From: a virus
Length of the DNA: 64,000 bases
IMG/VR virus record: IMGVR_UViG_3300027631_000002
Span: 96,001 to 160,000 of that record
Reading direction: 5' to 3' (one strand)
Each line of letters begins with the position of its first letter. Position 1 is the stretch's first letter. Both the position numbers and the translations under genes were made by a program. Shown in pieces: positions 59,151-64,000 of this stretch. The notes under the pieces were generated by a model. The model saw only the letters and a program-made list of their open reading frames with translations, did no database searches and was not told where the DNA came from.

Positions 59151-60221
59151 TTAAGAGTTGTATTTAAAATTATGATTCTCTTCAATATTTAGAAGAGTTT
59201 CGTAAATCAACTCTATAACATTTTTAATATCTTCCTTATGAACAGTTTCACAAGTTGTGTGCATGTACTTGAGTGCTAAAGAAATAAGTGCAGAAGGAGT
59301 ACCACCATTCGCATAAGCAAACGCATCGGTATCTGTTCCAGTTGATCTTGAAGATGCTGCTAACTGGTGAGGGATTTTTTTAGCCGTTGCAGTATCCAAA
59401 ATCAATTTTCTCAATTTATTATGAACTGCAGGACCTCTTGTAATAACACCTCCATCACCAGCAATGTGATCACCTTGTTTACTTGCGGTATAGCAAGGTG
59501 ATGATGTTTCATGACAAACATCAGTAATAATAGCAACATTTGGTTTAATTGTGTGTGCAATCATTTCAGCACCACGTAATCCAATTTCTTCTTGAACTGA
59601 ATTAACAATGTAAAGTTTAAATGGTAGTTTTTTACCTTTCTCTTTTAATTTTCTTGCAACCTCGGCAATCATAAAACCACCAATTCTATTGTCAAGAGCT
59701 CTACCAGAGTAGTAATCTTTACCAAGTTTCATCAACTCATCTTTAAAAGTAACTACAGTACCAACTTGAATACCCATCTTGGCAACATCCTCTTTTGAAG
59801 AAGCACCAATATCGATAAAAATTGAACTTAAATCAACCTCTTTCTTTCTATCAGCAATATGTATCGCTGGATGTCCAAAGACGCCTGTAACGACTCCTTT
59901 TTCTCCCCATAGATTTACTCTCATAGAAGGAGCAATTTGTACGTCAGAGCCACCATTTCTGATAACTCTAATATATCCTTTTGAGTCAATGTAGTTTACA
60001 AACCAACTGATTTCATCAGAGTGTGCTTCGATAACAACTTTAAAGTCAGACTCTAAATTACCGGTAACACCATAAGCAGTACCATAATTATCAAGTTCTA
60101 CAGAATCGACATACTTTTCAATATTGTCCATCCAAACTTTTTGTCCACCTAATTCATACTCAAAACCTGTTGGAGAAGTACTGTTCAAGTACTCTTTTAA
60201 AAACTTTTTGTTTAATTTCAT
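59151..60221 (-). CDS. M42 family metallo-aminopeptidase
   Basis: SPTGFE, EAHSDEI, ALDNRIG, QEEIGLRGA, TDVCH, STGTDTDA, KYMHT. Confidence 0.9.
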   Translation of the reverse strand: MKLNKKFLKEYLNSTSPTGFEYELGGQKVWMDNIEKYVDSVELDNYGTAYGVTGNLESDFKVVIEAHSDEISWFVNYIDSKGYIRVIRNGGSDVQIAPSMRVNLWGEKGVVTGVFGHPAIHIADRKKEVDLSSIFIDIGASSKEDVAKMGIQVGTVVTFKDELMKLGKDYYSGRALDNRIGGFMIAEVARKLKEKGKKLPFKLYIVNSVQEEIGLRGAEMIAHTIKPNVAIITDVCHETSSPCYTASKQGDHIAGDGGVITRGPAVHNKLRKLILDTATAKKIPHQLAASSRSTGTDTDAFAYANGGTPSALISLALKYMHTTCETVHKEDIKNVIELIYETLLNIEENHNFKYNS

Positions 60222-61937: not shown

Positions 61938-62720
61938 ATGGCAGGAAAAGTAAAGTTAAAAGTAGTACCAAGTATGTTTAGTGACTTCATCGAGAAGTTA
62001 AATACCGTAGCATCCATTGATGACACCGTTAAATTAAAGATAGATAATGAAAATATTCTAATGTATGCAATGTTAGGTGGTGGTAATGTTATTTTGGCAT
62101 TTAAAAACTTCTTACTACCTACAAAAGAATACTTTGATAATGATATGGAAGATTTTTCATTAGACATTATCATACCATCTGCTAAAAAGTTCGTAAAAAA
62201 CTTAGCATTCATAAAAGATATGGACAAAATAGGATTTGATGTTTCTTATAAAGAGTCACCAGATGATGATTCATTATATATTGCAAGAGGACTTCAAATA
62301 TCTTCTGGTAAATTTAAAGTAAATTGGTTAGGTGGTGAAGGTGGAACAATAAGAGATATTGGTAAAGCAGCATTAGCTCAACGATTAGATGTTAGAAATA
62401 AAAAATGGACTTTTAATATTCCTAATAGTGATTTCTTAGACATTAAAAAGTTATCTGGTATAAATGGTGAAAGAATTATAAATATGGATGTTGTTAAAGG
62501 AATTGTTACTTTATCAGAGAAATCTTCTTGGGAATTAGAAGTTGATAATCTAAACGATGATAGAGTTGCCAGTTTAATTTTAAATAAAAGATTTTTAAGT
62601 TGTATAAATGATAAGATGGAATCAATAGAATTTATTATCTTTGATAACTTTATGTTGATAAAAGATGAAAACTCAAATTTAATGTTGAGCTTTGAACAAG
62701 ACTTTAGTGACGATGAGTAG
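61938..62720 (+). CDS. Probable DNA sliding clamp (gp45-like)
   Basis: 260 aa with two-domain beta/alpha periodicity, acidic C-terminus, replication-class promoter, near the polymerase. Confidence 0.5.
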   Translation: MAGKVKLKVVPSMFSDFIEKLNTVASIDDTVKLKIDNENILMYAMLGGGNVILAFKNFLLPTKEYFDNDMEDFSLDIIIPSAKKFVKNLAFIKDMDKIGFDVSYKESPDDDSLYIARGLQISSGKFKVNWLGGEGGTIRDIGKAALAQRLDVRNKKWTFNIPNSDFLDIKKLSGINGERIINMDVVKGIVTLSEKSSWELEVDNLNDDRVASLILNKRFLSCINDKMESIEFIIFDNFMLIKDENSNLMLSFEQDFSDDE

Positions 62721-62893: not shown

Positions 62894-63427
62894 TTGAATA
62901 AAAAACAACTAAATTCTAAAAGAAAACACAAAATAAATGATGATATTAAGTCATTTGAAGTTAGACTAATCGTTACAGGTGCCGCACCAGAAGTGATGAA
63001 GACTAAAGATGCACTTCGTTTAGCAGATTCAGAAGGAAAAGATCTTATTTTAATCAATGAGAATCAAGATCCACCTATTGCTAAAATCGAAGATTACGGT
63101 AAATTTCTTTATAACATCGAAAAGATGTTAAAAGAACAAAAGAAAAATGCCATAAAATCAGAATTAAAAGAAATAAAACTCTCTTGTGAGATTTCAGACC
63201 ATGACTTAGAAATTAAAGCTAAGAAAGGTAAAGAGTTTTTATTAGATAATGATAAGGTAAAATGTGTTATTCAATTAAAAGGAAGACAAAAAGGTAATCC
63301 AGATAGAGGACAACTAGTAATGCTAAAATTTGCCACAATGTTGGACGAGTTTGGATCTGCCGAAAATATACCAAAACTTGAGTCTAGTAAATGGCTTATG
63401 ATATTAAAACCAAAAAAGAAGAACTAA
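62894..63427 (+). CDS. infC: Translation initiation factor IF-3 (TTG start)
   Basis: IN..I...EVRLI, AL.LA...G.DLILI, PPIAKI.DYGKFLY, KEIKL...I.DHDL.IK, KVKC.I.LKGRQ. Confidence 0.9.
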   Translation: MNKKQLNSKRKHKINDDIKSFEVRLIVTGAAPEVMKTKDALRLADSEGKDLILINENQDPPIAKIEDYGKFLYNIEKMLKEQKKNAIKSELKEIKLSCEISDHDLEIKAKKGKEFLLDNDKVKCVIQLKGRQKGNPDRGQLVMLKFATMLDEFGSAENIPKLESSKWLMILKPKKKN

Positions 63428-63478: not shown

Positions 63479-64000
63479 ATGACAAAGGATGAAAAAAGAC
63501 AAAGAATAGAACAGCTGAAAATACAAGCAGTTCAGTTAAAGAAAGATGTTGAGTATTACAATGCAATGCAGACAGCTCTAAAATTGGTATTAAATGGTAG
63601 CTATGTCTAACCCCCACTACGTTATGTGGTGGGGGTTAGACATAAAAAAAACGGAGCATTTGCAACTGCCTACTTCATATTATATAATAATCACGTAGCA
63701 GGTACAATAACGGCACAAGGTCGTGATTTAACAAAAACAATGGATAGAGTAAATGAAGATTATTGGTATAACCAATGGCATCTTGATTTTGATGTACATG
63801 ATAAAGTAGGAATTAAAAATGTTACTCAAATTGATAAAAGTGAGCATGTGAGTATTTATGCAGATACTGACTCATTATTTGTATCATTTAAACCGGCAAT
63901 CGATCATTGTGATTGGAATAATCTAGTTTTAAGTGAGATTGATTCTATAGATAAAAAGTTTATTGTTCTTTCAAAAGCAAAAGTAAAACATAATAATCCG
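63479..64000 (+). CDS. Family-B DNA polymerase, polymerase-domain subunit (3'-truncated), interrupted by a 48-nt stop-containing insert in motif B
   Basis: 63479..63604 encodes MTKDEK...QTALKLVLNGSY; 63653 onward in the same frame encodes GAFAT...ITAQGR...IYADTDSLF (motifs B and C). Confidence 0.85.
63603..63650 (+). other. 48-nt insertion element: 18-bp stem-loop plus A7, with in-frame TAA
   Basis: atgtctaacccccactac-gttat-gtggtgggggttagacat-aaaaaaa; removing 48 nt restores S-Y-G. Confidence 0.85.

What the first reader, a model, noticed from the sequence alone, without database searches (positions are those of the whole stretch)
63590..63665. DNA polymerase catalytic motif split by a 48-nt hairpin with an in-frame stop: candidate ribosomal bypass element or ultra-short intron
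Seen directly: the PolB ORF from ATG 63479 reads ...ALKLVLNGSY, then GTC TAA, and resumes exactly 48 nt later in the same frame with GAF...YADTDS. The insert is an 18-bp GC-rich stem (17 Watson-Crick pairs and one G.U, 5-nt loop) followed by an A-tract. Removing 63603-63650 (T|AC GGA) or 63605-63652 (TAT|GGA) restores motif B (KxxxNSxYG-type). It is unlike the window's terminators, which have a 5' A-run and 3' T-run; here no U-tract follows the stem on either strand. There is no target-site duplication and no intein Cys/His-Asn. Established: T4 gene 60 is decoded by bypassing a 50-nt gap that contains a stop codon and a hairpin, after a nascent peptide of about 46 residues; here the nascent peptide is 42-43 residues. 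The YG pair is essential, so plain readthrough (a 16-aa insert) should be inactivating. Inference: (a) bypassing, either Tyr-tRNA leaving UAU and landing on near-cognate AAC, or Val GUC to in-frame GUU at 63635 leaving a 6-aa insert; (b) protein-catalysed excision and ligation of a mini-intron; (c) a regulatory switch gating replication. An ATG at 63603 could also -1 frameshift on the A8 run into the polymerase frame.
Basis: partly seen in the sequence, partly recalled or inferred. Interest (0 to 1): 0.9.

Follow-up and report, generated by a model that had tools for sequence, protein, structure and literature searches.

The report
Ribosome-hop gap in megaphage DNA polymerase
A giant phage's DNA polymerase gene is interrupted in its catalytic motif by 48 untranslatable bases; dozens of related phages carry varied versions, spread by a selfish nuclease gene and paired with hidden RNA structures, so ribosomes most likely hop over the gap as in phage T4 gene 60, though no RNA or protein data could be obtained to prove it.

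Summary
The gene is the C-terminal subunit of a split family-B polymerase of a huge, probably Bacteroidota-infecting phage. Of 71 scorable loci, 47 carry a 36-48-nt C-run/G-run hairpin in motif B (33 distinct versions, six codons, all three frames); 24 are empty. Both flanks are under purifying selection, and near-complete carriers have no second copy. At five codons the insert ends in a triplet from the same codon box as the preceding codon (24/24), the signature of peptidyl-tRNA re-pairing. At the Tyr site, including this window, landing is only near-cognate (0/9 matched). Thirty of 32 carriers hide a 5' stem-loop in synonymous codons that ends at the take-off codon and moves with it. This window and one relative lack it and instead extend the insert stem 9 bp over the take-off codon. 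An adjacent HNH-fold nuclease occurs only with inserts (21/35 vs 0/17); here it is absent and the insert sits in an imported ~190-nt tract. Best reading: programmed ribosomal bypass, analogous but not homologous to T4 gene 60/MobA (~0.72); RNA excision ~0.13. The scan noted this family before in other genomes; I found no paper on it.

The parts
63479..63604 (+). First 42 codons of the PolB C-terminal subunit (fingers helix and motif B up to Tyr42; Lys35 at 63581-63583, Asn39 at 63593-63595)
   Evidence: relatives start at the same Met; dN/dS 0.03-0.10
63602..63604 (+). Inferred take-off codon UAU (Tyr42), paired at the base of the extended stem
   Evidence: first C of the stem lies 5-7 nt after the take-off codon in 33/33 distinct elements (6 nt here)
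63605..63652 (+). 48-nt coding gap, absent in 24 related loci
63608..63610 (+). In-frame stop TAA, second codon of the gap
   Evidence: first in-frame stop is codon 2 in 23/33 and codon 1 in 4/33 elements
63611..63635 (+). Family core hairpin: C5 arm, variable upper stem, 5-nt loop, G5 arm
   Evidence: first three C-G pairs 33/33; identical core in L002
63602..63644 (+). Extended hairpin: 63636-63644 is a perfect inverted copy of 63602-63610; found only here and in L015
63644..63651 (+). A8 run; 5 unpaired nt between stem end and landing triplet (A7 in L015)
63650..63652 (+). Inferred near-cognate landing triplet AAC (pairs tRNA-Tyr at positions 2 and 3)
   Evidence: inference; AAC also in L005, L006, L015
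63653..64000 (+). Resume codon GGA and remainder of the PolB C subunit (motif C at 63857-63874); continues 939 nt beyond the window
   Evidence: dN/dS 0.07-0.12 against six relatives
63479..63670 (+). Imported (gene-conversion) tract: follows nuclease-bearing L015 at 23 of 27 informative sites; right border between about 63670 and 63684, after which the gene follows empty-site L003
63428..63478 (.). 51-nt intergenic stretch where 21 insert-bearing relatives carry a divergent HNH-fold nuclease gene; none here

Best explanation
A mobile coding gap that is decoded by programmed ribosomal bypassing. Steps: (1) shown: the gap interrupts motif B of the polymerase C subunit, which is single-copy in near-complete carriers and under purifying selection on both sides. 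(2) shown by association, mechanism inferred: an HNH-fold free-standing nuclease beside the gene spreads the gap, which destroys its target; here only the gap and about 140 nt of upstream coding sequence were copied in. (3) inferred: the C/G stem meets the mRNA entry channel as Tyr42 is decoded, translocation is hindered, and peptidyl-tRNA-Tyr leaves UAU. (4) inferred: RNA refolding behind the ribosome drives it forward. In most relatives a 5' stem-loop hidden in synonymous codons does this; here the 9-bp stem extension over the take-off codon replaces it. (5) inferred: the ribosome stops about 5 nt past the refolded stem, tRNA-Tyr re-pairs on AAC (two of three positions) and decoding resumes at GGA, giving intact NGSYGAF. 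Ribosomes that do not take off add Val and stop at TAA (43-aa peptide).
For: 24/24 distinct non-Tyr elements end in a triplet of the same codon box as the take-off codon, at five different codons. The base before matches in 2/24 and the third base in 6/24, so the repeat is codon positions 1-2, not a DNA duplication; it is the first such triplet past the G-run in all but the Gly-site pair. Lengths fall in all three frames (9/14/10) and all nine in-frame versions contain a stop. Geometry is fixed: stem starts 5-7 nt after take-off in 33/33; landing lies 4-8 nt past the stem end in 30/33, including this window and L015 where the G-run is 14 and 13 nt away. 5' stem-loop: median z -5.0 in 32 carriers vs -0.05 in 17 empty genes, p 3e-7; downstream control windows do not differ; its 3' arm ends within -6 to +5 nt of the take-off codon whichever codon that is. 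T4 gene 60 uses such a 5' stem-loop and a take-off stem-loop to drive sliding (bioRxiv 10.1101/2022.08.31.505936; PMC11194080). dN/dS 0.03-0.13. One C-subunit gene in the 98%-complete carriers G001 and G002. Nuclease in 21/35 carriers vs 0/17 empty loci, Fisher p 1e-5; HNH fold Z 7.3, rmsd 4.5, 90 aligned to 4h9d. Presence is scattered on the tree: 14 changes, shuffled mean 14.3.
Against: At the Tyr site no member has a matched landing codon (AAC x4, AGC, TAA x2, CAA, GAC) and CAA pairs at one position only. This window lacks the 5' stem-loop (z 0.1) and holds competing triplets, including an in-frame TAT in the loop and an in-frame CAT at 63641. A stop directly after take-off, typical of gene 60, is found in 4/33 only. 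No 3' stem-loop after landing. The nuclease link is not significant after phylogenetic correction (about 4 pairs same way, 0 opposite, sign test median p 0.125). The genome is 30% complete, so a second copy in this genome itself is not excluded.
Confidence: 0.72

Rival explanations
1. The 48 nt are removed from the RNA, either by an endonuclease plus phage RNA ligase (protein-spliced mini-intron) or by RNA polymerase skipping the hairpin.
For: Needs no codon match, so it explains the Tyr site directly. The genome encodes a polynucleotide kinase and an RNA ligase. A helix-linker-helix arrangement could mark a cut site. In one register the removed piece starts exactly at the 18-bp stem.
Against: No junction dinucleotide is shared by all 33 elements in any valid register (best 23/33; group I-like U|...G only 6/33). 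The 5' junction is inside a helix here but mostly at a helix end or unpaired in relatives. The 3' junction distance varies 4-10 nt without consensus. No conserved helix brings the junctions together (median z -0.1; exon-exon helix here p 0.14). It does not explain codon-phased matches at five sites. No Rfam family reaches threshold. The joined form was not found in two collections, a weak test.
Confidence: 0.13
2. The gap is partly decoded: readthrough (16-aa insert), a Val GUC-to-GUU hop (6-aa insert), or landing at in-frame TAT or CAT (9- or 3-aa insert), and the enzyme tolerates the insert.
For: This element is a multiple of three and those triplets are in frame.
Against: 24 of 33 elements are out of frame, including the sister L015 (46 nt); L050 and L051 differ by one base. 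No stop-free in-frame insert exists among 71 loci. Tyr-Gly adjacency is invariant in all relatives and aligns with motif B of solved family-B polymerases.
Confidence: 0.06
3. The hairpin is a regulatory gate on replication (attenuation or condition-dependent decoding), kept for the phage's benefit.
For: It sits in an essential gene and any bypass would limit polymerase output.
Against: Empty alleles occur in the nearest relatives (L003 96%, L004 93%) and in two curated 635-642-kb genomes. Near-identical genes carry different elements at different codons (L016 vs L017). Distribution follows a nuclease and conversion tracts.
Confidence: 0.04
4. The gene is dead or the insert is an assembly error; a second intact copy, or a subpopulation with the gap deleted from the DNA, supplies the polymerase.
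For: The contig is 30% complete; no reads were examined.
Against: The same core occurs in independent assemblies; 428 open codons with dN/dS 0.07-0.12; single C-subunit gene in 98%-complete carriers; the 5' stem-loop in relatives shows selection to accommodate the insert.
Confidence: 0.05

Closest known systems
Phage T4 gene 60 50-nt translational bypass within the MobA homing-endonuclease element, and its homologues (Manning and Atkins, bioRxiv 10.1101/2022.08.31.505936; reviews PMC7026636, PMC5009743)
   Same: Short non-coding gap near the start of the second half of a split essential gene; neighbouring HNH nuclease that can be lost; take-off and landing codons read by one tRNA; hairpin and stop in the gap; 5' stem-loop; AU-rich 3' part with a G-rich stretch 5-8 nt before landing; repeated gain and loss among close relatives. 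[quoted passage not shown]
   Different: Target is DNA polymerase motif B, not topoisomerase. Six take-off codons (Ala, Leu, Val, Gly, Ser, Tyr) instead of Gly/Asp at one site. The stop is usually the second codon. A 10-11-bp C/G stem starts 6 nt after take-off, with no conserved UUCG tip. The 5' stem-loop is nearly universal and moves with the site, whereas Manning and Atkins found it poorly conserved. Unmatched landing at Tyr. The nuclease is co-located but divergent and carries DUF7487 repeats. Probable Bacteroidota host.
byps of Magnusiomyces capitatus mitochondria (as summarised; the original paper was not available)
   Same: 27-55-nt mobile hairpin inserts, matched or imperfectly matched take-off/landing codons, AU-rich 3' part.
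   Different: 81 copies across 12 genes on mitochondrial ribosomes with an unused A-site codon; here one copy per genome, confined to motif B, on bacterial ribosomes, with a nuclease partner.
Split T4-type polymerases (gp43A/gp43B; from my own knowledge)
   Same: Gene divided at the fingers; the N-terminal subunit (exonuclease and motif A) is a separate ORF.
   Different: The two halves lie about 95-135 kb apart in near-complete relatives, and the second half carries the gap.

Membership tests
T4 gene 60 / MobA bypass cassette | Inserted in the topoisomerase II large-subunit gene with MobA-derived terminal extensions | tested here: not met
   The host gene is a family-B polymerase
T4 gene 60 / MobA bypass cassette | Take-off and landing codons read by the same tRNA | tested here: inconclusive
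   Met in 24/24 non-Tyr elements; not met in 9 Tyr-site elements, including this one (TAT to AAC)
T4 gene 60 / MobA bypass cassette | [quoted passage not shown] | tested here: not met
   Here GTC then TAA; stop at codon 1 in 4/33, codon 2 in 23/33. Rarity of the sense codons in the host was not tested.
T4 gene 60 / MobA bypass cassette | Take-off stem-loop with the take-off codon in its 5' side | tested here: met
   Met in this window and L015; in other members the stem starts about 6 nt downstream
T4 gene 60 / MobA bypass cassette | 5' stem-loop upstream of take-off | tested here: not met
   Absent in this window (z 0.1 and 0.5); present in 30/32 family members
T4 gene 60 / MobA bypass cassette | Mini Shine-Dalgarno 5-7 nt before landing | tested here: inconclusive
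   G-run is 5-9 nt before landing in 30/33, but 14 nt here; landing tracks the stem end better. Bacteroidota sequester the anti-SD (PMC9723584).
T4 gene 60 / MobA bypass cassette | Adjacent free-standing homing endonuclease that mobilises the gap | tested here: inconclusive
   HNH-fold gene beside 21/35 carriers and 0/17 empty loci; absent here; conversion tract present; cleavage and homology to MobA not tested
Programmed translational bypassing (general) | Unspliced mRNA yields a protein lacking the gap | not testable with these tools
Group I / group II self-splicing intron | Catalytic core and U|...G or group II ends | tested here: not met
   36-48 nt only; U|...G possible in 6/33; no Rfam family at threshold
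Protein-spliced (bulge-helix-bulge or tRNA-type) intron | Shared structure placing both junctions for an endonuclease | tested here: not met
   Junction context differs among members; no conserved enclosing helix
Intein | In-frame protein insert with Cys/Ser start and His-Asn end | tested here: not met
   Stop-containing, mostly out of frame
Intrinsic terminator | Hairpin followed by a U-tract | tested here: not met
   true terminators of these phages have the same C/G stem but with T-runs

The most novel reading that the evidence does not exclude
A second, independently evolved family of programmed ribosomal bypass in which the landing point is set mainly by RNA refolding (about 5 nt past the reformed hairpin) rather than by codon match, so that an essential catalytic Tyr-Gly junction is built with near-cognate re-pairing. 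Two interchangeable RNA drives exist: a 5' stem-loop written in synonymous codons, or, as in this window, a stem extended over the take-off codon.
Probability: 0.5. Interest if true: 0.9.

Novelty: new variant of a known kind. Interest (0 to 1): 0.8.

Why it matters
Long programmed bypassing in bacteria has been shown at the bench only for T4 gene 60. This family offers 33 natural variants with six take-off codons, matched and unmatched landing, and a 5' stem-loop that shifts with the take-off site. That makes open questions directly testable: how much codon re-pairing landing needs, whether RNA refolding alone measures the jump, and whether a special nascent peptide is required. This window is the natural control that lacks the 5' stem-loop. 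It also suggests that ribosomes of Bacteroidota, which hide their anti-Shine-Dalgarno, can bypass. Practically, gene callers truncate motif B from these polymerases in about two thirds of the loci seen.

Tried and rejected
Lang 2014 and Bonocora 2011 were not held; they are cited only through other papers. Four literature searches aimed at this element found nothing on it. A pattern able to catch both gapped and joined forms found only L015's contig. Target-site duplication rejected: the repeat is codon positions 1-2 only. Shine-Dalgarno as the ruler for landing is doubtful: spacing is 14 and 13 nt here and in L015. A Ser12 enrichment in carriers (25/32 vs 0/17) first looked like a nascent-peptide signal; it is conserved at synonymous bases and pairs as the 5' arm of the 5' stem-loop in Tyr- and Ser-site members, and this window lacks it. 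An enclosing helix joining the flanks is seen in a few members (L047, L064, L023) but not in general. No 3' stem-loop. No other intragenic copies among the hairpin-like matches examined in five genomes; those were intergenic terminators or chance. Pair counts on a MAFFT alignment of nine Tyr-site elements were weak because stems were not in register. Sequence search of the nuclease against solved structures gave nothing; Foldseek E-values were all above 0.001. Three automatic insert calls (L031, L039, L055) were false and reset to empty. The tree is a quick IQ-TREE run without bootstrap; duplicates and intein-split or truncated rows were left out.

Full report
Observation. The sequence is as described. 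The ORF from ATG 63479 reads to Tyr42 (TAT 63602-63604), then GTC TAA, and resumes in frame at GGA 63653 for 428 codons, ending beyond the window. The stem 63603-63643 folds at -33.1 kcal/mol with z -9.2. It is the strongest long GC-rich hairpin of the 180-kb contig and the only one inside a gene. It is not a terminator and matches no Rfam family at threshold.

The gene and the phage. The window lies in a 179.6-kb virus record estimated 30% complete. The ORF holds motifs B and C only. In near-complete relatives the exonuclease and motif A half is a separate ORF about 95-135 kb away, so the polymerase is split at the fingers. Relatives encode bS21, and nearly all of the 80 best matches of the window's peptidase gene are titled as Bacteroidota; the host is therefore probably Bacteroidota (inference). 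The closest GenBank records are uncultured 635-642-kb phages, both with an empty site.

A family of gaps. A scan of viral contigs gave 71 related loci. With the window, 71 could be scored: 47 carry an insert, 24 are empty. The 33 distinct inserts are 36-48 nt, fall in all three frames (9, 14, 10) and sit after six codons of motif B: Ala33, Leu34, Val37, Gly40, Ser41, Tyr42. All have a C-run/G-run stem whose first three C-G pairs never vary, while the upper stem changes sequence and still pairs. All nine in-frame versions contain a stop. The window's 25-nt core is identical in L002, and its extended form recurs in L015 with a 46-nt length, which argues against an assembly error and against frame-dependent readings.

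The gene is working. dN/dS is 0.03-0.13 downstream and similar upstream, for carriers as for empty genes. The 98%-complete carriers G001 and G002 have one C-subunit gene each. Tyr-Gly is invariant and adjacent once the gap is removed. Something must therefore remove or skip the gap.

Evidence for a ribosome. At the five non-Tyr sites, the last triplet of the gap belongs to the same codon box as the codon before it in 24 of 24 distinct elements, most often CTT to CTA. The base before the triplet agrees in 2 of 24 and the third base in 6 of 24. A DNA duplication or a nuclease has no reason to respect codon phase at five sites; a peptidyl-tRNA does. Empty genes use TTA or TTG at the Leu site in 7 of 18 cases, carriers never. 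The stem begins 5-7 nt after the take-off codon in 33 of 33. [quoted passage not shown] Landing lies 4-8 nt past the stem end in 30 of 33.

A hidden second structure. Carriers differ from empty genes at synonymous positions upstream. Folding shows why: a 5' stem-loop with median z -5.0 against synonymous shuffles in 32 carriers, against -0.05 in 17 empty genes (p 3e-7). Two downstream control windows show no difference. Its 3' arm ends within -6 to +5 nt of the take-off codon (my search stopped at +5) and its partners change with the site: codons 15-19 for Ala and Leu sites, codons 9-12 for the Tyr site. [quoted passage not shown] Only two carriers lack this structure: this window (z 0.1) and L015 (z 0.7). 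These are the same two whose insert stem is extended by 9 bp over the take-off codon, raising it from about -21 to -34.5 kcal/mol. Their landing triplet moved away from the G-run (14 and 13 nt) but stayed 5 and 4 nt from the stem end. I infer that the extension replaces the 5' stem-loop and that the refolded stem measures the jump. This rests on one evolutionary event.

The weak point. No Tyr-site element has a matched landing codon: AAC four times, AGC, TAA twice, CAA, GAC. Eight of nine can pair tRNA-Tyr at two positions. In this window AAC is the only triplet in the A-run that offers a C to the wobble base. Imperfect matches are reported for yeast mitochondrial bypass elements (PMC5009743). 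In-frame TAT and CAT inside the stem-loop could compete.

How it spreads. A divergent gene directly upstream occurs in 21 of 35 carriers and 0 of 17 empty loci (Fisher p 1e-5; independent pairs about 4 to 0, not significant). Its C-terminal domain has an HNH-like motif; the best structural match is an HNH nicking endonuclease (Z 7.3, rmsd 4.5, 90 aligned), and PHROG matches are homing endonucleases. On the polymerase tree, presence needs 14 changes, as many as shuffled labels, at least 9 forced by strong branches. The window has no such gene and its upstream region equals that of empty L003. Yet its first 48 codons follow nuclease-bearing L015 at 23 of 27 informative sites, and from about 63684 on it follows L003. 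The gap was thus copied in with a short tract, as expected if a nuclease from a co-infecting phage cut the empty site (inference). This parallels MobA and the gene 60 gap. The stems resemble these phages' own terminators without the T-run, a possible origin.

Rivals. RNA excision remains possible: the genome has a polynucleotide kinase and an RNA ligase and the Tyr site needs no match under it. But no junction dinucleotide is shared across valid registers, the 5' junction is paired here and mostly not elsewhere, and no conserved helix joins the flanks. Partial decoding fails on the out-of-frame majority. A regulatory purpose fits poorly with empty close relatives. A dead gene fits poorly.

Membership and novelty. 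It works like T4 gene 60 bypassing but is not a member of the MobA cassette family: different gene, several take-off codons, stop not adjacent, different stem. Literature searches found no description; the library lacks most subscription journals. Earlier notes of this scan reached the same reading for 38-42-nt members in other genomes. I formed my reading before seeing them and do not count them as evidence. The short summaries I saw do not mention the site-tracking 5' stem-loop or its replacement by a stem extension. Verdict: real, functional, mobile coding gap; bypass 0.72; new variant of a known kind; interest 0.8.

Noticed in passing
L040:2311-3924, L047, L053, L059, L069; L050:4088-4700; L060:3875-5797: A second mobile element at motif C of the same gene: a contiguous intein (L060), a split intein (L050), or a split intein with a 366-371-aa ORF of unknown family between its halves. 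Several genes carry both this and the motif B gap.
   Followed up: partly
L016, L017, L018: Nearly identical polymerase genes carry different gaps at different codons (Ala33 with nuclease, Tyr42 without), showing recent replacement of one element by another.
   Followed up: partly
L054:2993-3757: A GIY-YIG/NUMOD3 nuclease occupies the upstream position instead of the HNH gene in a gap carrier; nuclease swaps are also reported for MobA cassettes.
   Followed up: no
L047, L064, L023, L019, L063 gap 3' ends: In some members upstream codons 10-14 can pair with the landing region, with apparent compensatory changes; not general across the family.
   Followed up: partly
window 62894-63427: Phage-encoded two-domain translation initiation factor IF3 with a probable TTG start, directly upstream of the polymerase subunit.
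   Followed up: no
window 59151-60221: Peptidase-like gene 60-66% identical to Bacteroidota genes; used as the host clue.
   Followed up: partly
window 61938-62720: 260-aa gene conserved upstream in 34 related loci, no Pfam or PHROG match; identity not established.
   Followed up: no
G000:21450-22593 (outside the window): Five tRNA-like genes with hairpins inserted in the D-loop region and variable anticodon arms; their hairpins are of another type than the polymerase gap.
   Followed up: partly
G000:27260-29131 (L097): Polynucleotide kinase and RNA ligase genes; relevant to the RNA-excision rival but common in large phages.
   Followed up: partly
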